From a virus (taxonomy: Duplodnaviria > Heunggongvirae > Uroviricota > Caudoviricetes), in IMG/VR virus record IMGVR_UViG_3300032245_001763, positions 1 to 64,000 of that record: 64,000 nucleotides of DNA; one strand, written 5' to 3'. Each line of letters begins with the position of its first letter. Within the stretch, counting starts at the first letter, position 1. Made by a program: the position numbers and the translations under genes. Below, one piece after another: positions 7,534-30,398 of this stretch. The notes beneath the pieces are model-generated. The model was not told the DNA's origin and searched no databases. It was given only the letters and a program-made list of their open reading frames with translations.

Positions 7534-7604
7534 GGGGTTGTGGTGTAAATGAAAACACAATAGATTATGGTCTATATATGGAGGTTTAAATCCTTCCGAC
7601 CCCA
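7534..7604 (+). tRNA. tRNA with a 6-nt anticodon loop (ATAGA-TTATGG-TCTAT); identity uncertain
   Basis: Perfect acceptor GGGGTTG/CGACCCC, D-stem GTGT/ACAC, T-arm GGAGG-TTTAAAT-CCTTC. Confidence 0.5.
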
Positions 7605-17604: not shown

Positions 17605-18436
17605 GGGTACATATGATTTTATTTGTCGTGATCATAAGTTTGAAATTGGTCAAACTTATGAATTGCCTAATAAACCCATTTTGTGTAAATATGGTTTTCA
17701 TTATTGCAAGAATGTTTTAGATGTATTAAGTTACTATAATTTAAAACCAAGTTTTAAATTATTAGAAATTGAAGATTTAGGTCACTCTATAACGGATTCA
17801 GATAAAACAGTTACCAATAAGTTGCGTGTTATTCGTGAGGTTCCAGTAGAAGAATTAAATTTGCTTTTTAATTGTAAAATTGAATTTGATTCAAATAAAA
17901 TTACTATCACACAACCAGATGGTTCTTGGAGTTATTTTATTTTTAATGAAAAAAACAATGGAATTTATCATGAAGATTCAACTGGTTTTTGGAGAAAAAA
18001 GTCATACGATGAAAATGATAATTTAGTTAAATTTGAAAATTCGGATGGTGATTATTACAAGCATGAATATAATGAACATGGTAATGAAATTTATTTTGAA
18101 TCATCAACTGGATTTTGGGAAAAGAAAACTTATAATGAGTTTCAAAGTTTAACTTATCTTGAAAATTCAAGAGGCGAATGGATCAAGTATTCATATGATT
18201 CAAAAAACAATTTTCTTTCTGAAGAAAGATCAAATGGAATTTGGATTAAAAACAAATATGATGAAAATAATAATGAAATTTATCATGAAGATTCGTATAG
18301 AACATGGATAAAAAGTAAATATGATTCTAAAAATAATTTGATTTTTCAAGAATCTTCTTATAATAATTGGTTTGAAAATAAAGTTATAATATTTTTTTAT
18401 TTAATAAAATATTGTTTTAGAAAGCTCATAAAATGA
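17588..18436 (+). CDS. GFHYC-domain plus MORN-variant repeat family protein
   Basis: Same N-domain; C-terminal repeats G.W.K..YDENNN. Confidence 0.65.
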   Translation: MKIGYKGTYDFICRDHKFEIGQTYELPNKPILCKYGFHYCKNVLDVLSYYNLKPSFKLLEIEDLGHSITDSDKTVTNKLRVIREVPVEELNLLFNCKIEFDSNKITITQPDGSWSYFIFNEKNNGIYHEDSTGFWRKKSYDENDNLVKFENSDGDYYKHEYNEHGNEIYFESSTGFWEKKTYNEFQSLTYLENSRGEWIKYSYDSKNNFLSEERSNGIWIKNKYDENNNEIYHEDSYRTWIKSKYDSKNNLIFQESSYNNWFENKVIIFFYLIKYCFRKLIK

Positions 18437-19053
18437 AAGTTGGATATAAGGCAACATATAATTATATGTGTCGTGGATTTAAGTATGAAATTGGTAAAAC
18501 TTATGAAATCGAAGGCAAATCAGAATTGTGCGAACGTGGATTTCATTATTGCGAATTACCACATCAAACACTTGCTTTTTATCCTATAAATCCTTATTTT
18601 AAATTACTTGAAATACAAGATTTAGGTAACACTAAAATAGATAAACAAAAGTGTTCTACAAATAAAATTAAAATATTAAGAGAAATAGAAAATGTTGGCA
18701 CATTAAGCACTGCATTACATGGAATGCATGATGCAATATACAAAAATGACAAAAATTATATTGTTTCATCTGGTCTATTTTCAAAATTTAAAGATATAGA
18801 AGAATTTTCATATACAGATATGTCTATGACTTTTGAGAAAAAAATTAAACTTGATTCAAATTATAGAATTATTGAAGAAGAATCTGATAATTACAAGTAT
18901 AGATTTTTTCATACAAAAAATAAAACATACAAATTTTATTATGATAATTTTCCATCAAAGTGCATTTCATATATTGATTACTTTTTTATTAAAATGTTTA
19001 ATAAAGAATCTGTTTATGTTAATAATGGGTCTATTATAGAGTGTGAAAAATGA
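18433..19053 (+). CDS. GFHYC-domain family protein (repeat-poor)
   Basis: MKVGYKATYNYMCRGFKYEIGKTYEIEGKSELCERGFHYC. Confidence 0.6.
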   Translation: MKVGYKATYNYMCRGFKYEIGKTYEIEGKSELCERGFHYCELPHQTLAFYPINPYFKLLEIQDLGNTKIDKQKCSTNKIKILREIENVGTLSTALHGMHDAIYKNDKNYIVSSGLFSKFKDIEEFSYTDMSMTFEKKIKLDSNYRIIEEESDNYKYRFFHTKNKTYKFYYDNFPSKCISYIDYFFIKMFNKESVYVNNGSIIECEK

Positions 19054-20111
19054 AAACAGGATATATTCCAACATATAAAACATTTAATATAAATGATATC
19101 ATTGATTCTAAATTTACTTATTATAAAGATCCTTATGATTTATCTGAAGTAAGTATTTATAATGAAAATTTTCATTTATATGAAATTGAAGATCTTGGTC
19201 AAACTAAACCAAGCATGTTTAACAATGATTTTTTTACTAATAAAATAAAAATATTAAGAGAAGTTACCAACAAAATTGAATTAGAATCTTTGATTGGTAA
19301 AGTTGAATTGAAAAATGATTTATATACAAAATATTTTCGTGATATGTATGTTAAATACAAATTTGATGAAAATAATAATTGTATTTATTTCGAATATCGA
19401 AATGGTTATTGGTTAAAAAATCAATATGATGAAAGAAATAATAAAATTCATTTTAAAGATTCAAATGGTTACTGTATCGAATATAAATATGATGAAAGAA
19501 ATAATAAAATTTATTCCGAAAGTCCAAATGGTGTTTGGGAAAAACATGAATATGATGAAAGAAATAATAAAATTTATTATGAAAATTCAGATGGTACTTG
19601 GTTCAAAACTCAATTTGATGAAAGAAATAATTGTGTTTATTATGAACATTCAAAAGGTGATTGGGAAAAATGTGAATATGATGAAAACAATAATAAAGTA
19701 AGTTCTGAAACTTCAAGTGGCTTTTGGAAAAAATATTCATATGACGAAAGAAACAATTTAGTTTATTGTGAATTAAAAGATGGATGGGTAAAATATAGAT
19801 ATGATGAACGAAATAATCCTGTTTATGTTGAGCATTCAACTGGTAATTGGATAAAAAAAGAATATGATGAACGAAACAATATGATTTACATAGAATCACA
19901 TGATGGATGGTTTAATAAAATAGGTTATAATGAATATAATCAAATAATTAGTGAATATTTAAAAGGTTATATTTTAAAAAATGTTTATGATGAATTTCAA
20001 AAAGTTAAAATTAAATCTAATGAAATAGGTAGATATTTAACAAAAAGCAAATCTGGTTTACAACAACTGACTTCCCAGTCCAGAATCACTGTAAACGACA
20101 GTCAAATTTGA
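19050..20111 (+). CDS. MORN-variant repeat protein (about 11 YDERNN.IY.E.S.G.W.K repeats) with a degenerate N-domain
   Basis: Repeats such as WLKNQYDERNNKIHFKDSNGYCIEYKYDERNNKIYSESPNG. Confidence 0.65.
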   Translation: MKTGYIPTYKTFNINDIIDSKFTYYKDPYDLSEVSIYNENFHLYEIEDLGQTKPSMFNNDFFTNKIKILREVTNKIELESLIGKVELKNDLYTKYFRDMYVKYKFDENNNCIYFEYRNGYWLKNQYDERNNKIHFKDSNGYCIEYKYDERNNKIYSESPNGVWEKHEYDERNNKIYYENSDGTWFKTQFDERNNCVYYEHSKGDWEKCEYDENNNKVSSETSSGFWKKYSYDERNNLVYCELKDGWVKYRYDERNNPVYVEHSTGNWIKKEYDERNNMIYIESHDGWFNKIGYNEYNQIISEYLKGYILKNVYDEFQKVKIKSNEIGRYLTKSKSGLQQLTSQSRITVNDSQI

Positions 20112-21048: not shown

Positions 21049-21124
21049 CAGGGTGTGGGCTAATTGGTAAGCCACCTAGTTAGGGGCTAGGATATACATG
21101 GGGATTCGACTTCCCCCACCTTGA
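21049..21124 (+). tRNA. tRNA with anticodon loop TTAGGGG (AGG, Pro-like?) and an 8-nt variable region; identity uncertain
   Basis: Acceptor CAGGGTG/CACCTTG, D-stem GGCT/AGCC, anticodon stem CCTAG/CTAGG, T-arm GGGGA-TTCGACT-TCCCC. Overlaps the 3' end of the minus-strand ORF 21080-21826. Confidence 0.45.
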
Positions 21125-21826
21125 CTGTTTTAAATTAATGATGTTAGAGATAATTGTTAAAAATTCTTTAGCTTTATTTTCTTTAAAATGTTTAAAATTT
21201 GATGTGTCAATAATACAAAGTTCAATATTGTTTTCTAAGCAAGCTTGAAATTTTCTATTATCATTATTTTTAATTTGATTTAACTTATTATCACCATAAA
21301 TTGGCTCATAGTGGAAAATTCCATTTAATTCAAAAGCTAATTTTAATGATGGAATGTAAATATCAAGTTCAGAATTGATTGCATCTTTTTTGTTAAATTC
21401 AAAATAAAGTTTTGGATGAAGAATTGGTAATTGCAATTCTAACCAAAATTCTAATTTAGATCTTCTGTAACCTTTTATTTTATGTGTGTTATTATAAGTT
21501 GCAGCACAAGATTTAGAACAGAAATTATTTTTAGTAACTTTAATTTGATTTAATTGTTTGGTAAATTCTATGTTGCATTGAGCACAATTAACTTTTTGTT
21601 GAGTTATTTTTGCTAAGTTGGAACATTTTTTTGAACAGTACAAACAACCGTTTGCGTATTGCATACAGTTTTTTGAACATGGTTTTAAATGATTTTTATG
21701 TAAATTTGTTTGGGAAATATACCTTTTCTTTTTGTAAAATGTACATTTGCATTTCAAACAAATTAAAGATAAGATATCATCCGAATTTGCTAAATTAAAT
21801 TCATCAATTGAAAAGTTAGTTTGCAT
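21080..21826 (-). CDS. Cys-rich zinc-ribbon protein with a C-terminal DUF559/Vsr-like (PD-(D/E)xK-fold) domain
   Basis: N-terminal CxxC pairs (CLKCKCTF, CMQYANGCLYCSKKC, CAQC, CSKSC). C-terminus DIYIPSLKLAFELNGIFHYEP...DNRKFQACLENNIELCII matches the DUF559 core D..iP...laiE.dG..H...D..R...L...G..v.R. Confidence 0.5.
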   Translation of the reverse strand: MQTNFSIDEFNLANSDDILSLICLKCKCTFYKKKRYISQTNLHKNHLKPCSKNCMQYANGCLYCSKKCSNLAKITQQKVNCAQCNIEFTKQLNQIKVTKNNFCSKSCAATYNNTHKIKGYRRSKLEFWLELQLPILHPKLYFEFNKKDAINSELDIYIPSLKLAFELNGIFHYEPIYGDNKLNQIKNNDNRKFQACLENNIELCIIDTSNFKHFKENKAKEFLTIISNIINLKQSRWGKSNPHVYPSP

Positions 21827-21833
21827 AATTTAT

Positions 21834-21877
21834 ATAGTAGTCAGATTCGAAATTTAAATTTCGAATCTGACTACTAT
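21834..21877. other. Perfect 22-bp/22-bp inverted repeat with no loop (ATAGTAGTCAGATTCGAAATTT|AAATTTCGAATCTGACTACTAT)
   Basis: Read directly from the sequence. It sits between the 5' end of the minus-strand gene 21080-21826 and the downstream tRNA block. Confidence 0.6.
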
Positions 21878-21995
21878 GACTGGATTAAATAAAGTAATAC
21901 TTAAATTTGTTACTCTTAAAAGAAATTTCAAGAGTCGAGGCGTGTGACCAAAGCAGCGTAATGGCTTTTCTGTATACGGTAAGCAGAATTTATAT

Positions 21996-22066
21996 CAGGG
22001 TATGGTATAGTGGGAGTACAGGAGATTTGGGATCTTCTAGCAGTTGTTCGATTCAACTTACCCTGA
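21996..22066 (+). tRNA. tRNA-Pro(TGG)
   Basis: Perfect acceptor CAGGGTA/TACCCTG, anticodon stem GGAGA/TCTTC with loop TTTGGGA, perfect T-arm AGTTG-TTCGATT-CAACT. Confidence 0.7.
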
Positions 22067-22160
22067 CTTTATTAGAATGATAGAAGGAATACATTTACAA
22101 TCTCCACCAAAATTAGGGGACTAAATATCTTTTTAGACTTTGTCTAATAAATTTTTATAT

Positions 22161-22229
22161 GGGGCGTCCAACGGGTTGGTACTGTGTTTTGCACATACGG
22201 TTTTATGGGTTCAACTCCCATACGCTCCA
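22161..22229 (+). tRNA. tRNA-Ala(TGC)
   Basis: Acceptor GGGGCGT/ACGCTCC, anticodon stem TGTGT/ATACG with loop TTTGCAC, T-arm ATGGG-TTCAACT-CCCAT. Confidence 0.6.
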
Positions 22230-22246
22230 ATAATTTTTGTTTAAAT

Positions 22247-22329
22247 GGGGTCGGGGGCACTGTTGGGAGTGTCGGCTGATTTGCAATCAGTCTATTTTCG
22301 CGGGTTCGATTCCCGTCTTCTCCACTGGT
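22247..22329 (+). tRNA. tRNA-like paralogue of the two Glu tRNAs with a poor acceptor stem (pseudogene?). Anticodon loop TTTGCAA (TGC).
   Basis: D-stem GCAC/GTGT, anticodon stem GCTGA/TCAGT, T-arm GCGGG-TTCGATT-CCCGT; acceptor GGGGTCG/CTTCTCC pairs only 4-5/7. Confidence 0.35.
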
Positions 22330-22341
22330 TTAGCTTTAAAT

Positions 22342-22417
22342 GGCGTAGCAGTTGCTGTTGGTATGTAATCTCAAGCTTTCAACTTGAAGTTCGCGAGTTC
22401 GATTCTCGTCTACGTCA
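22342..22417 (+). tRNA. tRNA-Glu(TTC)
   Basis: Acceptor GGCGTAG/CTACGTC, perfect anticodon stem TCAAG/CTTGA with loop CTTTCAA, T-arm GCGAG-TTCGATT-CTCGT. Confidence 0.7.
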
Positions 22418-22432
22418 CTTGGTGTTTTAATT

Positions 22433-22508
22433 GGTGCAGTAGTTGTTGTTGGTATATAATTTTAGGCTTTCAACCTGAAGTCCACGGGTTCGATTCCCGT
22501 CTGCATCA
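22433..22508 (+). tRNA. tRNA-Glu(TTC), paralogue of the previous gene
   Basis: Acceptor GGTGCAG/CTGCATC, anticodon stem TTAGG/CCTGA with loop CTTTCAA, T-arm ACGGG-TTCGATT-CCCGT. Confidence 0.7.
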
Positions 22509-22511
22509 TAA

Positions 22512-22545
22512 AAGAGGAATGATTTAAATCATTCCTATTTTTTTA
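22512..22545 (+). terminator. Rho-independent terminator closing the tRNA block (AGGAATGATTT/AAATCATTCCT plus T8)
   Basis: Perfect 11-bp stem followed by TATTTTTTTATT. Confidence 0.7.
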
Positions 22546-22599
22546 TTGAAATTTTTAAAAAATTTTGTAATTTTGTAATTAAAATTACTATAATATAAC

Positions 22600-22902
22600 A
22601 TGAGTAAAATACCAATTTCAATAAGATTAGAAGAAGAAACTATAAATTTATTAAAAGTTGCTGCAATGCAAGAAGCATTGCGACGTGGTAATTATGATTT
22701 AAACTATATTAATTTAATAGAAGAGGCGATTCATGAAGCATATGATGAATCTTTATTTAAAGAAGCAAAGGTAAAAATTTCTGAAAATGCTAAATGTTTG
22801 AAAAATATAATTAAGAAAAATAAAAATAATGGCAAAATTGAATTAGTTAATGACAACACTATAGACAAAGCATTTGTTGATAGCCTTTTAGGAAGCAAAT
22901 GA
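22600..22902 (+). CDS. hypothetical protein
   Basis: ORF track, 100 aa; ATGA overlap with the next gene. Confidence 0.5.
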   Translation: MSKIPISIRLEEETINLLKVAAMQEALRRGNYDLNYINLIEEAIHEAYDESLFKEAKVKISENAKCLKNIIKKNKNNGKIELVNDNTIDKAFVDSLLGSK

Positions 22903-24116
22903 AAAGAGATAAATTAATAGATAATCCAAAATTGATGAATCTTTTTGATTTTGATAAAAATAAAGATTTAGATATCAATAAATTAACTGAAGGTCAAACA
23001 TATAAATTATGGTGGAAGTGTAAATTTAATCATTCATGGCAAGCTAGAATAGCAGATATTGAAAATGGAATTGGTTGTCCACTCTGCTTTAAACAAAAAG
23101 GATCTTCGCTTTATAAGCGTCTTGAATTAATTCACTATTGGCATCCTGATAAAAATGGAATATTATCTCCCGATGATGAGTTTTCTTTTAATAAACAAAA
23201 AATTTGGTGGAAATGTCCAGTTGCCAATGATCATGAATGGCAAACAACTGTAAATTTGAAAAGAGGATGTCCTTTTTGTAACGGTAATAAAGTATGTAAT
23301 TCTAATTGTTTATTAACCACACATCCTGAAACAGCAAAAGAGTGGCATCCTACTAAAAATAATTTAAAACCTAGTGCTGTAACAGCAGGTTCTCATAAAA
23401 AAGTATGGTGGAAGTGTTCAGTTGCTGAAGACCATGAGTGGGAGTCAATAATATCAAAAAGAACTGATGCGTCAAGAAAAAAGCTTAGAGGATGTCCTTG
23501 TTGTAGTGGAAAAAAACTTGTTTTATCTAATTGTGTAGCAACGAAATTTCCAAATCTTTTATTAGAATTTGATTATATTAAAAATTTAAATAAAACGCTT
23601 TATGATGTTGTATTTTCTAGTAAGGAAAAATTTTATTGGAAATGTAAAAAAGGTCATGAGTGGCAAAGTTCTATTTTAGTCAGATGTTCAGGTTCTGGCT
23701 GTCCTGAATGTAAAAATTCTAAAGGTGAAAACAGAGTAAAAGAATATTTGTTATCAAAAAATATTAATTATATATTACAATATAATTTTGGTGATAATAA
23801 ATTGAAAATGCGAGCCGATTTTTTTGTAACTAAAGTTAGACCAAGTATTATTGAGTACAATGGTGGACAACATTATTTTCCTGTAAATTTTGGTTCAAAA
23901 TCTTTTGATGCTAAGGAAAAAAATTTTAAAAAGAATAAAGAACGAGACAAGATTAAATCTGACTATTGTCGAGAGAACAACATAGAATTATTGATCATCC
24001 CATATTGGGACTTTGATAGAATTGAAGAGATATTAGATTCTTGGTTTAATTATGAAGAAGTAAAATTTTCTGAAGAACCAGAAATTGTGAAAAAGTACAA
24101 AGGAAAAAACTTATGA
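22899..24116 (+). CDS. Multi-zinc-ribbon (about 8 WWKC...HEW...GCPxC repeats, DUF4379-like) protein with a C-terminal DUF559/Vsr-like nuclease-fold domain
   Basis: Repeats YKLWWKCKFNHSWQARIADIENGIGCPLC, KIWWKCPVANDHEWQTTVNLKRGCPFC, KVWWKCSVAEDHEWESI...GCPCC and KFYWKCKKGHEWQSSILVRCSGSGCPEC. C-terminus DFFVTKVRPSIIEYNGGQHYFP...ERDKIKSDYCRENNIELLIIPYW. Confidence 0.6.
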   Translation: MKRDKLIDNPKLMNLFDFDKNKDLDINKLTEGQTYKLWWKCKFNHSWQARIADIENGIGCPLCFKQKGSSLYKRLELIHYWHPDKNGILSPDDEFSFNKQKIWWKCPVANDHEWQTTVNLKRGCPFCNGNKVCNSNCLLTTHPETAKEWHPTKNNLKPSAVTAGSHKKVWWKCSVAEDHEWESIISKRTDASRKKLRGCPCCSGKKLVLSNCVATKFPNLLLEFDYIKNLNKTLYDVVFSSKEKFYWKCKKGHEWQSSILVRCSGSGCPECKNSKGENRVKEYLLSKNINYILQYNFGDNKLKMRADFFVTKVRPSIIEYNGGQHYFPVNFGSKSFDAKEKNFKKNKERDKIKSDYCRENNIELLIIPYWDFDRIEEILDSWFNYEEVKFSEEPEIVKKYKGKNL

Positions 24117-27441: not shown

Positions 27442-28020
27442 ATGAAAACAGGATATAAAGCTACTTATGATTATATTTGTATCAATCATAAGTTTGAAAT
27501 TGGTCATTCTTATGAATTATCACATAAGCCAATTCCTTGTCAATATGGGTTTCATTATTGCGTAAATCCGAAAGATGTTTTGCATTATTACCCAATTCAA
27601 CATAAGTTTCGTTTACTTGAAATTGAAGATTTAGGTGAATCAATTACTGAAGGTGATAAATCGGTAACAAATAAAATTCGAATTATTCGAGAAGTTCCAA
27701 AAGAAGAATATTATCCTTTATTTGGTATTGTTAATAATAAATTAAAGTTTGTTAACATATTTGGTTGTTTGGAAAAACGTGAATTTGATGAAAGAAATAA
27801 TTGTATTTATTATGAAAAATCAAATGGTGATTGGCAAAAATACACATATGATGAAAGAAATAATAAAATTCGTTATGAAGAGTCGGGTGGATATTGGGTA
27901 AAACATGAATATGATGAAAGAAATAATCAAATTTATTATGAAGATTCAAATGGTTATTGGGACAAATACACATATGATGTAAACAATAATTATTTGAAAA
28001 CAGAAAGAGGACATAAATGA
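27442..28020 (+). CDS. GFHYC-domain plus MORN-variant repeat family protein
   Basis: MKTGYKATYDYICINHKFEIGHSYEL...GFHYC...LLEIEDLGESITEGDKSVTNKIRIIREVPKEEYYPLFG, then YDERNN repeats. Confidence 0.65.
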   Translation: MKTGYKATYDYICINHKFEIGHSYELSHKPIPCQYGFHYCVNPKDVLHYYPIQHKFRLLEIEDLGESITEGDKSVTNKIRIIREVPKEEYYPLFGIVNNKLKFVNIFGCLEKREFDERNNCIYYEKSNGDWQKYTYDERNNKIRYEESGGYWVKHEYDERNNQIYYEDSNGYWDKYTYDVNNNYLKTERGHK

Positions 28021-28753
28021 AAACTGGATATAAAGCTACATACGATTTTATTTGTCTAGATCATAAATTTGAAATAGGTCAAACTTATGAATTACAAGGA
28101 ACTCCAATTCCTTGTGAATATGGATTTCATTATTGTGTAAATTCGAAAGATGTGTTGAAATATTATATAATTAAACGTGATTTTCGCGTGATTTTCGATT
28201 ACTGGAAATTGAAGATCTTGGAGAATCAATCGTTAAAGAAGATAAAACTGTAACAAATAAATTACGTGTTGTTCGAGAAGTTCCAAAAGAAGAATATTAT
28301 CCTTTGTTTGGGATTATTAATAACGAATTAACAATTACTAAGTCATCTGGTAATTGGGAAAAACGTAAGTTTGATGAAAGAAATAATTGTATTTATCTTG
28401 AATATTCAAATGGTTTTTGGTCTATACATGAATATGATGAAAATAATAATTTAATTTATGTTGAATATTCAAATGGTGAATGGAAAAAATACAAATATGA
28501 TGAAAATAATAATTTAATTTATGTTGAATATTCAAATGGTGAATGGAAAAAATACAAATATGATGAAAGAAATAATCTAATTTATTCTGAAAGTTCAAGG
28601 GTTTATTGGGTAAAACGAACATATGATGAAAATAATAATGAAATTTATTATGAAGATTCATCTGGTGATTGGAAAAAACGCAAATTTGATCAAAATAATA
28701 ATTGTATTTATTATGAAAAATCAAATGGTTATTGGCAAAAAAAACACATATGA
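28017..28753 (+). pseudogene. GFHYC/MORN-family gene disrupted by an 11-bp tandem duplication (CGTGATTTTCG) at about 28192-28202. It is split into ORFs 28017-28253 and 28304-28753.
   Basis: Actual AAACGTGATTTTCGCGTGATTTTCGATTACTGG versus the paralogue-expected AAACGTGATTTTCGATTACTGG (K-R-D-F-R-L-L-E-I-E-D-L-G). Removing the 11 bp restores LLEIEDLGESIVKEDKTVTNKLRVVREVPKEEYYPLFGIINNELT in frame. Confidence 0.7.
28435..28560 (+). repeat. Perfect 63-bp tandem duplication (2 copies), equal to one 21-aa MORN-variant repeat unit (EYSNGEWKKYKYDENNNLIYV)
   Basis: 28435-28497 is identical to 28498-28560. Confidence 0.8.
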
Positions 28754-28792
28754 TGAAAGCAATAATTGCTTAAAAACAGAAAGAGGACATAA

Positions 28793-29308
28793 GTGAAAAC
28801 TGGATTCAAAGCAACCTATAATTTTATTTGTTTAAATCACAAGTTCGAAATTGGCAAAACTTATGAGTTACCAAGAACTCCAATTCCTTGCGAATATGGT
28901 TTTCATTATTGTGTAAAACCAATTGACGTTCTTGAATATTATCCAATTCAACATGATTTTCGTTTGTTGGAAATTGAAGATCTTGGAGAATCAATCGTTA
29001 AAGAAGATAAAACTGTAACAAATAAGATTCGGATTATTCGAGAAATTCCAAAAGAAGAATATTATCAACTATTTGGAATTATCAATAATGAATTAAAATA
29101 CTTCACCAGATTTGGCAATTGGATAAATCAAAAATTTGATGAAAGAAACAATCCAATTTATTATGAATATCTAACTGGTTATTGGACAAAACGTGAATAT
29201 GATGAAAGAAATAATCTTATTCATTCTGAAGACTCATTTGGCTATTGGGAAAAACATGAATATGATGAAAATAATAATCTTTTAACAAAAGAAATAGGAC
29301 TCAAATGA
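28793..29308 (+). CDS. GFHYC-domain plus MORN-variant repeat family protein
   Basis: MKTGFKATYNFICLNHKFEIGKTYELPRTPIPCEYGFHYC. GTG start; ATGA overlap with the next gene. Confidence 0.6.
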   Translation: MKTGFKATYNFICLNHKFEIGKTYELPRTPIPCEYGFHYCVKPIDVLEYYPIQHDFRLLEIEDLGESIVKEDKTVTNKIRIIREIPKEEYYQLFGIINNELKYFTRFGNWINQKFDERNNPIYYEYLTGYWTKREYDERNNLIHSEDSFGYWEKHEYDENNNLLTKEIGLK

Positions 29309-29910
29309 AAACTGGATATAAAGCTACTTACGATTATATCTGCAGAGATCACAAGTTCGAAATTGGTAAAACTTATGAGTTATCAAGAACTCCAATTCTT
29401 TGCAAATATGGTTTTCATTATTGTCTAAAACCAAAAGACGTTTTAGATTATTATCCAATCAATCAAGAGTTCCATTTATTAGAAATTGAAGATTTAAGTA
29501 GTCAAACACAATTAGATTATTTTAAGCGTATTAGTGTTACTAATAAAATTAGAATTATCAGAGAAATAGTTGATAAAAAAGAATTTTTAAATCTGTTAGG
29601 TAGTTATCATCAGTATGATGATAACAAAAATTTAATTTATTCTGAATATACAAATGGTTATTGGAAAAAGTTTTACTATGACGAATTAAATCGTTTAGTG
29701 TTCAACACGGACTCGGATAATCTGTGGTTTAAACGTAAATATAATAAAAATAGCAGATTAATTTATTATGAAGATTCATTTGGTTATCATGAGTGTTTTG
29801 AGTACGATGAGAATGATTGTAAAACTTATTATAAAAATTCAACTGATGGCGAATTTAGATACACATATGATCAAAATGTTGTAAAAATTCAAAAATTGGA
29901 GTCTAAATGA
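29305..29910 (+). CDS. GFHYC-domain plus MORN-variant repeat family protein
   Basis: MKTGYKATYDYICRDHKFEIGKTYELSRTPILCKYGFHYC. Confidence 0.65.
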   Translation: MKTGYKATYDYICRDHKFEIGKTYELSRTPILCKYGFHYCLKPKDVLDYYPINQEFHLLEIEDLSSQTQLDYFKRISVTNKIRIIREIVDKKEFLNLLGSYHQYDDNKNLIYSEYTNGYWKKFYYDELNRLVFNTDSDNLWFKRKYNKNSRLIYYEDSFGYHECFEYDENDCKTYYKNSTDGEFRYTYDQNVVKIQKLESK

Positions 29911-30398
29911 AAACAGGATATAAAGGTACTTATAATTACGTTTGTAAAAATCAAAAGTATGAAATTGGAAGTTCATATGAATTATTATTTGAACCACGTA
30001 TTTTTTCATGTGGATTTCATTATTGTCAAAAAGCTTCTAATGTTTTATTGCACTATCAAGATTATGTTTTTGAATTTAAACTCTTAGAAATTGAAGATTT
30101 AAGTAATTGTGCAGATACTTATTTTGATTCTGATAATTATTCTACTAACAAAATTAGAATTATTAGAGAAATTAGTGATAAAACTGAGTTATTGAAATTA
30201 CTTGGTAGATATCATGAGTTTAATTCAGACAAAAATGTTACTTATTGGGAATCTTCTGATGGTCGTTGGGCAAAATACAGCTATAATCATCATGGAGACT
30301 TATGTTTTTTAGAAGATTATAACGGTGTTAAGTGTGAATTTATCTATAATTCTGATAGAAGGTTTTTAAAAACAAAAATGTATGAAAACAAATTTTAA
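29907..30398 (+). CDS. GFHYC-domain family protein
   Basis: MKTGYKGTYNYVCKNQKYEIGSSYELLFEPRIFSCGFHYC. Confidence 0.6.
   Translation: MKTGYKGTYNYVCKNQKYEIGSSYELLFEPRIFSCGFHYCQKASNVLLHYQDYVFEFKLLEIEDLSNCADTYFDSDNYSTNKIRIIREISDKTELLKLLGRYHEFNSDKNVTYWESSDGRWAKYSYNHHGDLCFLEDYNGVKCEFIYNSDRRFLKTKMYENKF

What the first reader, a model, noticed from the sequence alone, without database searches (positions are those of the whole stretch)
21080..24116. Two multi-zinc-ribbon proteins with DUF559/Vsr-like nuclease-fold C-termini flanking a tRNA sub-cluster and a 44-bp perfect palindrome
The minus-strand gene 21080-21826 and the plus-strand gene 22899-24116 diverge from the block containing tRNA-Pro/Ala/Glu/Glu and the loop-less 22/22-bp inverted repeat at 21834-21877. 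Both proteins have repeated Cys pairs. The larger has about 8 copies of a tryptophan-containing zinc-ribbon (W-W-K-C ... H-E-W ... G-C-P-x-C). Both end in a domain with the D..iP...l.iE.NG..H...(D/E)..R...L...G/N..l..I pattern of DUF559/very-short-patch-repair-like endonucleases. The pairing of a sequence-reading zinc-ribbon array with a nuclease fold suggests site-specific nucleases (homing, restriction-like or anti-defence), possibly acting on the adjacent palindrome.
Basis: partly seen in the sequence, partly recalled or inferred. Interest (0 to 1): 0.55.

Follow-up and report, generated by a model that had tools for sequence, protein, structure and literature searches.

The report
Mobile nuclease genes in tRNA array
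Two unrelated selfish nuclease genes sit in a giant phage's tRNA gene cluster; one is an ordinary homing-endonuclease type, while the other belongs to a large unnamed family of about 0.75-kb cassettes found right after tRNA genes, flanked by a copy of the tRNA's last 20 bases.

Summary

ORF2 (22899-24116) is a free-standing Vsr/EDxHD-type homing endonuclease of a kind common in phages.

ORF1 (21080-21826) belongs to an unnamed family (940 clusters at 50% identity, absent from GenBank phages). Of 102 non-redundant members, 95 have tRNAs within 3 kb, antisense to the gene in 90. In 71 a tRNA starts within 100 nt of the stop.

Two empty-versus-filled site comparisons show a ~0.74-kb insertion exactly after the tRNA discriminator base. 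One has an exact 20-bp duplication (T-loop to base 73), the other a decayed copy. Thirteen further loci at different tRNAs show such a repeat.

The palindrome is this cassette's 5' junction: a tRNA-3'-end-like arm plus its mirror image, shorter in relatives. The insertion mechanism is inferred, not shown.

The parts
21049..21125 (+). tRNA-Pro(agg). The ORF1 cassette begins immediately after its discriminator base.
   Evidence: ARAGORN. Rfam tRNA model, 47 bits. Homology between the cassettes of the window and L118 starts at 21126.
21080..21826 (-). ORF1, 248 aa: two MYM/FCS-like zinc fingers plus a Vsr/EDxHD-fold nuclease. It has no stop codon inside the cassette and reads 14 codons into the antisense strand of tRNA-Pro(agg).
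21485..21775 (-). ORF1 zinc fingers. Finger 1 uses C23, C26, C64 and C68. Finger 2 uses C81, C84, C103 and C107.
   Evidence: These Cys residues are invariant in 34 homologues. Weak profile match to the MYM-type finger 2das.
21122..21469 (-). ORF1 nuclease domain (about residues 120-235). E153, D155, E166, N168, G169, H172, E174, N188 and D189 are invariant.
21126..21859 (-). Inferred mobile cassette, about 734 bp: ORF1, its upstream TATATAA-type element and the cassette-borne arm of the palindrome.
   Evidence: Boundaries come from the alignment to L118 and by analogy with the L078/L127 filled and empty pair.
21834..21877 (.). Perfect 44-bp palindrome with two TTCGAA hexamers 8 bp apart. It starts 8 nt upstream of the ORF1 start codon.
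   Evidence: Relatives have shorter versions, with 11-nt arms in L118 and 17-nt arms in L117. L117 carries a compensatory TTTGAA/TTCAAA change.
21860..21879 (+). tRNA-3'-end-like segment TTCGAAT-CTGAC-TACTATG-A (T-loop, T-stem 3' strand, acceptor 3' strand, discriminator). It occupies the position where family members carry the duplicated tRNA end.
   Evidence: In this window it does not match tRNA-Pro(agg) or any other tRNA in the window.
21996..22067 (+). tRNA-Pro(tgg), followed at 22068 by TTTATTAGAATG. This is an EMPTY site for the related cassette that is inserted at this same tRNA in L118.
   Evidence: Alignment of the window with L118. Rfam, 57 bits.
22160..22509 (+). Four further tRNA calls (Ala, Ala, Glu, Glu). 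Only 22433-22508 passes Rfam's threshold.
22515..22546 (+). Intrinsic-terminator-like hairpin plus T-run that ends the tRNA block.
   Evidence: (I15). Conserved in L121.
22565..22594 (+). Sigma-70-like promoter match (TTGTAA-18-TATAAT) in front of the operon made of the 100-aa gene and ORF2.
   Evidence: consensus match only.
22600..22902 (+). 100-aa gene whose stop overlaps the ORF2 start (ATGA). It is conserved together with ORF2 in a related phage (85% identity). A weak ribbon-helix-helix-like hit only.
   Evidence: (DUF6290, E 0.085).
22899..24116 (+). ORF2, 405 aa: 4 DUF4379 treble-clef zinc modules plus a C-terminal Vsr/EDxHD-fold nuclease.
22962..23714 (+). ORF2's four DUF4379 modules. 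The Cys/His ligand sets are C41/H45/C60/C63, C106/H112/C124/C127, C173/H179/C199/C202 and C249/H253/C268/C271.
   Evidence: Pfam PF14311, 4 stretches. Invariant columns. PDB matches to DUF4379 mitoribosomal proteins.
23721..24053 (+). ORF2 nuclease domain, with D307, E319, G322, H325, D350 and K353.

Best explanation
The region holds two independent selfish nuclease genes lodged in the tRNA gene array of a phage-like genome assembled as a 530,789-bp scaffold.

ORF2 is a free-standing Vsr/EDxHD-type homing endonuclease. Its four DUF4379 zinc modules read DNA, and its C-terminal nuclease cuts. It is expressed from its own operon with a small upstream gene.

ORF1 is the cargo of a ~0.74-kb mobile cassette of a large, so far unnamed family. 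The cassette is found immediately after base 73 of tRNA genes, antisense to them.
- The tRNA stays intact on one side.
- A ~20-bp copy of the tRNA's end (T-loop position 54 to the discriminator) lies on the other side, next to the gene's promoter region.

The 44-bp palindrome is that junction. One arm has the layout of a displaced tRNA end. The other arm is the cassette's own inverted T-loop-like terminus. In this lineage the symmetry has spread outward to 22-nt arms and has overwritten the original duplicate.

Inferred mechanism: the zinc fingers recognise the universally conserved T-loop box (GTTCRANTC) as DNA. The nuclease then makes cuts about 20 bp apart, at 53/54 on one strand and 73/74 on the other. 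Fill-in or repair around the incoming cassette produces the repeat. The palindromic double TTCGAA site created at the junction may serve as an operator for the nuclease, by analogy with I-TevI autorepression.
For: Shown by tool results:
- Fold and residues.
- ORF2 matches phage homing-endonuclease families (phrog_559 at 1.9e-45, phrog_9084 at 1.1e-21). It also matches phage genes annotated as homing or 'VSR homing' endonucleases.
- DUF4379-nuclease gene copy number differs between related phages: 1 in the window, 3 in L121.
- ORF1 family size: 4813 homologues and 940 clusters at 50% identity with E <= 1e-30.
- tRNA association, in 102 non-redundant genes:
  - 95 have tRNAs within 3 kb, all antisense in 90 of them (647 antisense against 35 sense tRNAs).
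  - 71 have a tRNA starting within 100 nt of the stop codon, antisense in 69.
  - In 33 the tRNA overlaps the ORF.
  - At least 15 tRNA identities are involved.
- Repeat of the tRNA end: the tRNA-specific last 13 nt recur at >= 11/13 upstream of the start codon in 14 of 44 loci, against 0.4% for mismatched pairings. One of the 14 (L076) is an artefact. Identity begins at the T-loop.
- Empty and filled sites:
  - L127 is empty and L078 is filled with a 742-bp insert plus an exact 20-bp repeat TTCGATTCTGGTAGTCGCAA.
  - The window's tRNA-Pro(tgg) is empty, and the same tRNA in L118 is filled.
- Several copies occur per contig.
- An antisense T-loop motif upstream of the start codon is seen in most family members by eye. 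A TATTTAT element was counted in 34 of 66 upstream regions.
- The palindrome grows across close relatives and carries a compensatory change in L117.

From the literature:
- I-Bth0305I is a dimer that cuts a pseudo-palindromic TTxG...CxAA site (PMC3239194).
- T4 SegB cuts tRNA genes and mobilises the tRNA region (cited in PMC8421152; PMC13096335).
Against: - No nuclease activity, target or cut positions are known for either protein. The staggered-cut model is only the simplest way to obtain a 20-bp duplication.
- In the window itself, the tRNA-like arm of the palindrome does not match the adjacent tRNA-Pro(agg) or any other tRNA in the window. The duplication is therefore inferred here from relatives.
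- About two thirds of family loci show no recognisable matching repeat. This could be decay, or transfer together with flanking DNA.
- The related phage L121 has a different gene, not a clean empty site, at the window's insertion point.
- Three of 102 genes have only sense-strand tRNAs nearby, and two have both orientations.
- The double TTCGAA-N8-TTCGAA site is present in only about 12% of upstream regions.
Confidence: 0.7

Rival explanations
1. ORF1 and ORF2 form one two-nuclease system (restriction-like, defence or anti-defence) that acts on the palindrome lying between them.
For: Both proteins have the same nuclease fold and zinc fingers. They diverge from the same tRNA block.
Against: - None of 113 loci with an ORF1 relative has a DUF4379 gene within 3 kb.
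- The related phage L121 keeps ORF2 but lacks ORF1.
- A terminator and a promoter-like site separate ORF2 from the tRNA block.
- The palindrome travels with ORF1 relatives only.
Confidence: 0.04
2. The ORF1 family is a classical free-standing homing endonuclease, like T4 SegB. It cuts tRNA genes of competing phages and spreads only by homologous repair. On this view the tRNA-end repeats are by-products of recombination among tandem tRNA genes, not duplications made at insertion.
For: - Vsr/EDxHD fold.
- Precedent of SegB in the T4 tRNA region.
- Tandem duplicate tRNAs are common in these arrays.
- Two thirds of loci lack a matching repeat.
Against: - Two empty-versus-filled comparisons show one tRNA at the empty site, and tRNA + cassette + a second copy of the tRNA end + the same flank at the filled site.
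- Matching repeats occur at 13 loci on different tRNAs, and all begin at the T-loop.
- Several copies occur per contig.
Confidence: 0.17
3. The ORF1 protein acts on RNA or serves the tRNA array. For example, it could be a Vsr/RAP-like endoribonuclease or a processing factor for the polycistronic tRNA transcript. On this view its position in the arrays reflects function, not mobility.
For: - RAP-domain and FASTKD4 RNA-binding proteins appear among the fold matches.
- The association with tRNA arrays is strict.
- A subset of cassettes carries a hairpin shaped like the top half of a tRNA, right after the tRNA.
Against: - The gene is antisense to the tRNAs.
- Its presence is patchy among close relatives, and its position among homologous tRNAs varies.
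- Clean insertions exist with duplicated target sequence.
- The best fold matches are DNA nucleases, with the same conserved metal-binding and general-base residues.
Confidence: 0.06
4. The full tRNA plus a partial 3' copy is the footprint of integrase-mediated integration of a larger island. ORF1 is merely cargo at the edge of that island.
For: A whole tRNA at one end and a 3' fragment at the other, in direct orientation, is the classic signature of att sites of tRNA-integrating elements. This rests on established knowledge, not on a tool result here.
Against: - The two repeats are only about 700-890 bp apart and enclose a single ORF.
- No integrase appears in the gene lists of the loci examined.
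- The empty and filled sites differ only by the 742-bp cassette plus the repeat.
Confidence: 0.03

Closest known systems
I-Bth0305I and the 'EDxHD' (Vsr-like) homing endonuclease family (Dassa et al. 2009, PMC2677866; Taylor et al. 2011, PMC3239194)
   Different: I-Bth0305I uses NUMOD/HTH modules and lives in a group I intron inside recA. ORF2 uses four DUF4379 zinc modules and is free-standing. ORF1 uses two MYM/FCS-like fingers, sits at tRNA 3' ends and is flanked by a ~20-bp duplication, which homing does not normally produce.
Phage T4 SegB (a GIY-YIG free-standing homing endonuclease in the tRNA gene region)
   Same: It is a selfish nuclease gene embedded in a phage tRNA cluster. It cuts within tRNA genes and drives inheritance, and as reported recently amplification, of the tRNA region.
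   Different: The fold is different (GIY-YIG). No fixed insertion point at tRNA base 73 has been reported, and no duplication of the tRNA end. SegB is a single gene in T-even phages, not a family spread over more than 15 tRNA identities.
Integrase-borne genomic islands and prophages that integrate into tRNA or tmRNA genes
   Same: The tRNA gene stays intact, and a displaced 3' fragment in direct orientation marks the other end of the insert.
   Different: Those elements are kilobases to hundreds of kilobases long and carry a tyrosine or serine recombinase. Here the insert is ~0.74 kb, and its only gene is a Vsr-fold nuclease.
DUF559 (PF04480), Vsr and REase_MTES_1575 (PF18741) nuclease domains fused to DUF4379 in bacteria and phages
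   Same: ORF2's architecture is the common one. Many of its homologues carry PF14311 together with PF04480, PF18741 or PF10881 hits.
   Different: ORF2's own C-terminus falls below the Pfam thresholds. ORF1 has no DUF4379 module at all.
I-TevI autorepression (a homing endonuclease that binds an operator resembling its homing site at its own promoter; Edgell et al. 2004, recalled from memory)
   Same: A target-like, partly symmetric sequence lies directly upstream of the nuclease gene's start, overlapping a late-promoter-like TATAAAT-type element.
   Different: Binding is untested here. The palindrome is far longer and perfect, and it is partly built from duplicated target DNA.

Membership tests
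Vsr-like / EDxHD homing endonucleases | Vsr-type variant of the PD-(D/E)xK fold in the catalytic domain | tested here: met
Vsr-like / EDxHD homing endonucleases | Conserved composite motif: acidic residue, metal-binding Asp, general-base His and second Asp | tested here: met
   ORF1: D155, E166, H172 and D189 in 34/34 homologues. ORF2: D307, E319 and D350 in 24/24, and H325 in 21/24. The correspondence to I-Bth0305I D196/H213 is by motif order and fold. No residue-level superposition was done.
Vsr-like / EDxHD homing endonucleases | Site-specific DNA cleavage that promotes inheritance of the gene | not testable with these tools
   Indirect evidence only. Insertion polymorphism. Copy-number variation.
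Vsr-like / EDxHD homing endonucleases | Residence in a group I intron or intein, or free-standing between conserved genes, with no target duplication | tested here: inconclusive
   ORF2 is free-standing in an operon, and no intron was found by Rfam. ORF1 is free-standing between tRNA genes, but a ~20-bp duplication flanks the insert. That departs from classical homing.
DUF4379 (PF14311) zinc-ribbon proteins | Match to the PF14311 profile above its gathering score | tested here: met
ORF2: 203 bits against a cutoff of 24.5, in 4 stretches.
DUF559 (PF04480) | Match to the PF04480 profile | tested here: not met
   Neither ORF hits PF04480 at E <= 1. Some ORF2 homologues do. The resemblance is at the level of fold and motif only (3hrl).
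Integrase-mediated tRNA-integrating islands | A tyrosine or serine recombinase gene inside the element | tested here: not met
   The insert is 742 bp and holds one ORF. No recombinase appears in the gene tables of the neighbourhood.
Integrase-mediated tRNA-integrating islands | An intact tRNA at one end and a direct repeat of its 3' part at the other | tested here: met
   for the family. In the window the repeat is replaced by the palindrome arm.
MYM/FCS-type zinc fingers (PF06467) | C-x2-C ... F-C-S-x2-C pattern and a profile match | tested here: inconclusive
   The pattern is present twice and is invariant. Precomputed PF06467 hits exist on only a few homologues. The profile match to ZMYM5 2das has E 0.019.

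The most novel reading that the evidence does not exclude
The ORF1 family is a previously unrecognised class of minimal mobile element. It is a ~0.75-kb cassette whose only protein is a zinc-finger Vsr-fold nuclease.
- It recognises the universal T-loop box of any tRNA gene.
- It inserts exactly at the tRNA 3' end.
- It duplicates the last 20 bp, so the tRNA survives.

By hopping among tRNA genes within and between genomes, it would be a driver of the growth, shuffling and horizontal spread of tRNA arrays in huge phages and filamentous cyanobacteria.
Probability: 0.5. Interest if true: 0.85.

Novelty: new variant of a known kind. Interest (0 to 1): 0.7.

Why it matters
- Huge phages and some cyanobacteria carry long tRNA arrays, and how these arise and spread is an open question. 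A recent report ties a homing endonuclease in the T4-type tRNA region to amplification of tRNAs that counter tRNA-cleaving defences (PMC13096335).
- A very common nuclease cassette that targets the 3' end of any tRNA gene, yet had gone unnoticed, would give a concrete agent for array remodelling.
- It would also be a homing-endonuclease-type gene that leaves a long target duplication. That blurs the line between homing and transposition.
- It could provide a compact protein that reads the conserved T-loop box as DNA and cuts at a fixed distance, which is of practical interest.
- ORF2, by contrast, is an ordinary member of a known class.

Tried and rejected
- Sequence profiles gave nothing for ORF1. 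Pfam, NCBIfam (only a spurious SagB hit at E 0.0099) and a PDB sequence search were all empty. Only PHROGs gave weak hits to homing-endonuclease families.
- A DNA search of the region against 50,697 phage records found no match. ORF1 as a protein matched only a 54-residue piece in four Staphylococcus phages.
- I looked for the source of the palindrome's tRNA-like arm among all 31 tRNAs in the window. The best match was 14/20 to tRNA-Val(tac), in the T-arm only, so none is convincing.
- I expected phage L121 to show a clean empty site for the window's cassette. Instead a different 99-aa gene sits there, and the tRNA-Pro(agg) 3' half differs.
- Probes for other empty sites returned only the filled loci themselves or nothing. 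One probe succeeded.
- I tested whether the double TTCGAA-N8-TTCGAA site is a family-wide feature. It is enriched but present in only 8 of 65 upstream regions. The long palindrome is therefore a lineage-specific elaboration.
- I considered a giant eukaryotic virus as the source (low GC, many tRNAs, DUF7666). I set this aside in favour of a phage-like genome. The genes are small, tightly packed and overlapping; there are PHROG hits; and the identical ORF2 lies on a 530,789-bp metagenome scaffold.
- No group I intron or other Rfam family surrounds ORF2. Hits of the palindrome to microRNA families are far below threshold and reflect only the long hairpin.

Full report
**1. What is there**

The window is AT-rich (about 26% GC). 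It carries 31 ARAGORN tRNA calls, all on the + strand, and small, tightly packed genes. A protein identical to ORF2 lies on a 530,789-bp metagenome scaffold whose local gene order matches the window. The source is therefore a very large phage-like genome.

- ORF1 (21080-21826, minus strand, 248 aa) and ORF2 (22899-24116, plus strand, 405 aa) exist as described.
- The 44-bp perfect palindrome at 21834-21877 also exists. It starts 8 nt upstream of the ORF1 start codon.
- Between the two genes ARAGORN calls Pro(tgg), Ala, Ala, Glu and Glu. Rfam supports only Pro(tgg) and the second Glu at its threshold.
- ORF1's stop codon and last 14 codons lie inside tRNA-Pro(agg) 21049-21125 on the other strand. 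That tRNA is real by Rfam (47 bits).

**2. The proteins**

ORF2:
- It has four DUF4379 modules, not eight (PF14311, E 4.5e-61). Each module has a Cys-His-Cys-Cys ligand set.
- D307, E319, G322 and D350 are present in 24 of 24 homologues that have the domain. K353 is present in 23 and H325 in 21.

ORF1:
- It has no Pfam hit.
- Its 34-sequence alignment shows two invariant C-x2-C...[FY]-C-S-x2-C fingers. It also shows an invariant E153/D155...E166-x-N-G-x-x-H172...N188-D189 core.
- The fingers match a MYM-type finger weakly.
- The two nuclease cores align with each other at 30% identity over 71 aa.

It rests on structure and motif, not on profile hits.

**3. ORF2 is ordinary**

- ORF2 matches PHROG families annotated as homing or HNH endonucleases (phrog_559 at 1.9e-45, phrog_9084 at 1.1e-21).
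- It matches 375 GenBank phage records, several annotated as homing endonuclease. One is annotated 'group I intron-associated VSR homing endonuclease'.
- Many of its 2415 homologues combine PF14311 with PF04480, PF18741 or PF10881.
- It follows a terminator-like hairpin and a promoter-like site. It overlaps the stop of a 100-aa gene that accompanies it in a related phage (85% and 78% identity).
- That relative carries three DUF4379-nuclease genes where the window has one. Such copy-number variation is typical of free-standing homing endonuclease genes.

**4. ORF1 belongs to a large unnamed family tied to tRNA genes**

Size and distribution:
- The search found 4813 homologues of about 225 aa at 50-60% identity, with essentially no annotation.
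- A profile search counts 940 clusters at 50% identity with E <= 1e-30.
- The family is absent from the 50,697 GenBank phage records, apart from a 54-residue partial match in four Staphylococcus phage records.
- Among 185,579 species genomes it appears 32 times. These are mostly short contigs of metagenome bins of scattered taxonomy. It also occurs inside the long tRNA arrays of filamentous cyanobacteria, and next to tRNA-Pro(ggg) in Acidobacteriota.
- IMG/VR holds 269 relatives, on contigs of up to 452 kb.

Association with tRNAs, across 102 non-redundant genes:
- 95 have tRNAs within 3 kb.
- In 90 of these, every tRNA is antisense to the gene (647 antisense tRNAs against 35 sense).
- In 71 a tRNA starts within 100 nt of the stop codon, and it is antisense in 69.
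- In 33 the ORF overlaps the tRNA.
- The neighbouring tRNA can be any of at least 15 identities.

The C-terminal tails of many homologues are simply antisense tRNA read as protein.

**5. The cassette is an insertion with a duplicated tRNA end**

Upstream of the start codons, family members share an antisense T-loop motif (GGATTCGAAA...). This motif was seen in most members by eye. A TATTTAT-like element about 10-15 nt before the ATG was counted in 34 of 66 upstream regions. The T-loop motif is preceded by sequence that reads, on the tRNA strand, as T-stem 3' strand + acceptor 3' strand + discriminator.

In 14 of 44 non-redundant loci (one of them, L076, is an artefact), the tRNA-specific last 13 nt of the tRNA abutting the stop codon recur there at >= 11/13. 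The rate for mismatched pairings is 0.4%. The identity starts at the T-loop and ends at or one base before the discriminator.

Two comparisons of related contigs show the event directly.

First comparison:
- In L127 a tRNA-Met is followed directly by CAAAAAA... and a conserved flank.
- In L078 the same tRNA-Met is followed by a 742-bp cassette, then by TTCGATTCTGGTAGTCGCAA (an exact 20-bp copy of T54 to A73), then by the same flank.

Second comparison:
- In L118 a cassette 84% identical in protein to the window's sits after a tRNA-Pro(tgg). It is followed by a decayed copy of that tRNA's end and then TTTTATTAGAATG.
- In the window the homologous tRNA-Pro(tgg) (21996-22067) is followed directly by TTTATTAGAATG. 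This is an empty site.
- The window's cassette sits instead after tRNA-Pro(agg). The homology between the two cassettes begins at the base after the discriminator (21126).
- Hence the ORF has no stop codon of its own in this lineage.

A third relative (L117) has the cassette after yet another Pro tRNA. Several contigs carry two copies. No recombinase is linked to the cassette.

**6. The palindrome**

On the + strand the right arm reads AAATT-TCGAAT-CTGAC-TACTATG-A. That is the layout of a tRNA 3' end from the T-loop onward, and it sits exactly where relatives carry the duplicated tRNA end. The left arm is its mirror image, and it is homologous to the cassette-borne sequence of relatives.

Arm length increases across close relatives:
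- L118: 11 nt, with a recognisable Pro(tgg) duplicate beyond the arm.
- L117: 17 nt, with only CTTGAC of the duplicate left, and with TTCGAA changed to TTTGAA/TTCAAA in both arms.
- The window and L116: 22 nt.

The palindrome is therefore the cassette's 5' junction. Its symmetry has spread outward, most simply by conversion between the arms or by fold-back repair, and it has overwritten the original repeat. This explains why the arm matches no tRNA in the window.

A shorter double TTCGAA-N8-TTCGAA site occurs in about 12% of family members, against a background of 0.008 per 100 nt.

**7. How it probably works (inference)**

- Every tRNA has exactly 20 nt from T54 to base 73. The only sequence shared by the many target tRNAs is the T-loop box.
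- The simplest model is that the zinc fingers bind that box as DNA. The Vsr-type nuclease then cuts at the two ends of the 20-bp segment on opposite strands. Its relatives are nickases or dimers that cut pseudo-palindromes.
- Repair around an incoming cassette then duplicates the segment and leaves the tRNA intact.
- The junction palindrome, which lies next to a promoter-like TATATAA/TATTTAT element, may be an operator for the nuclease.

None of this is shown. Classical homing with recombination by-products, an RNA-directed role and an unseen recombinase remain as rivals, in that order.

**8. The two genes are not a system**

None of 113 loci with an ORF1 relative has a DUF4379 gene within 3 kb. 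A related phage keeps ORF2 and lacks ORF1.

**9. Literature**

- The Vsr-like/EDxHD homing endonuclease family is known (PMC2677866, PMC3239194).
- Homing endonucleases near tRNA arrays have been noted: HNH genes beside cyanobacterial arrays, 'protein-encoding genes embedded' in them, and T4 SegB (PMC8421152; PMC13096335).
- Full-text searches found no description of a Vsr-fold, MYM-finger family inserted at tRNA 3' ends with a 20-bp duplication. The search covers only open-access papers.

**10. Verdict**

- ORF2 is a new member of a known kind.
- ORF1 and its palindrome lead to a new variant: a tRNA-end-specific nuclease cassette family. This is the interesting part.

Noticed in passing
L106 3640-3697, L059, L084, L085, L070, L057, L053, L074, L011, L029, L103 (between the tRNA 3' end and the ORF stop); not present in the window: In a subset of ORF1-family cassettes (at least 12 of 70), a ~41-nt hairpin directly follows the tRNA. 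It has a 7-bp outer stem that covaries between loci, a ~10-nt linker, then a 5-bp stem with a 7-nt loop T(G/C/T)(C/T)ACGT that runs straight into the outer 3' strand. On the tRNA strand this is the geometry of a tRNA acceptor/T-arm 'top half'. It may preserve 3' processing of the neighbouring tRNA, or it may be a protein-binding site.
   Followed up: partly
window 22160-22230, 22247-22325, 22342-22418: Three ARAGORN tRNA calls (Ala, Ala, Glu; 71-79 nt) fall below Rfam's tRNA threshold. One gets only a weak tmRNA-clan hit. Even so, 22247-22325 is almost identical in the related contig L118, so it is conserved. These may be atypical tRNAs or tRNA-like RNAs.
   Followed up: partly
window 1619-1710, 5554-5639, 1181-1260, 3012-3085, 7534-7604: Several tRNA calls are unusually long (Asn 92 nt, His 86 nt, Trp 80 nt). 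Two have an undetermined 2-nt 'anticodon'. tRNA-Pro(agg) and tRNA-Arg(acg) carry A34 anticodons.
   Followed up: no
window 18433-20111, 27442-30398: A run of paralogous genes carries DUF7666-type N-termini and Y-D-E-R-N-N-K repeats (weak RHS/YD-shell hits in the related locus L121). They flank the tRNA block on both sides.
   Followed up: no
L121 2636-2935: In a related phage, a different 99-aa plus-strand gene occupies the slot between tRNA-Pro(agg) and tRNA-Pro(tgg), where the window has the ORF1 cassette. This inter-tRNA slot is a hot spot for gene replacement.
   Followed up: partly
L005, L047, L048, L050: In a small clade, the ORF1-family gene lies on the same strand as the tRNA array, and its 3' end runs through a tRNA-Trp(cca) call. 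This may be an inverted cassette, or a mirror-image call of an antisense tRNA-Pro(tgg).
   Followed up: no
L044, L059, L062, L094: tRNAs with anticodon CTA (called 'Pyl', i.e. amber suppressors) occur next to family members on some contigs. Some host phages may therefore read TAG as sense. The window itself shows no suppressor tRNA.
   Followed up: no
L008, L010, L014, L020-L028, L033, L035 (Microcoleus, Nostoc, Tolypothrix, Microseira and related): Cyanobacterial long tRNA arrays contain a shorter version of the ORF1 protein, with one finger (it matches residues 63/74-240). It is antisense to the array and usually overlaps tRNA-His by 20-29 nt. These may be the unnamed 'embedded protein-coding genes' mentioned in PMC8421152.
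   Followed up: partly
window 3422-4309: An SPFH/Band-7 family protein (PF01145, E 1.6e-17) is encoded among the tRNA genes.
   Followed up: no
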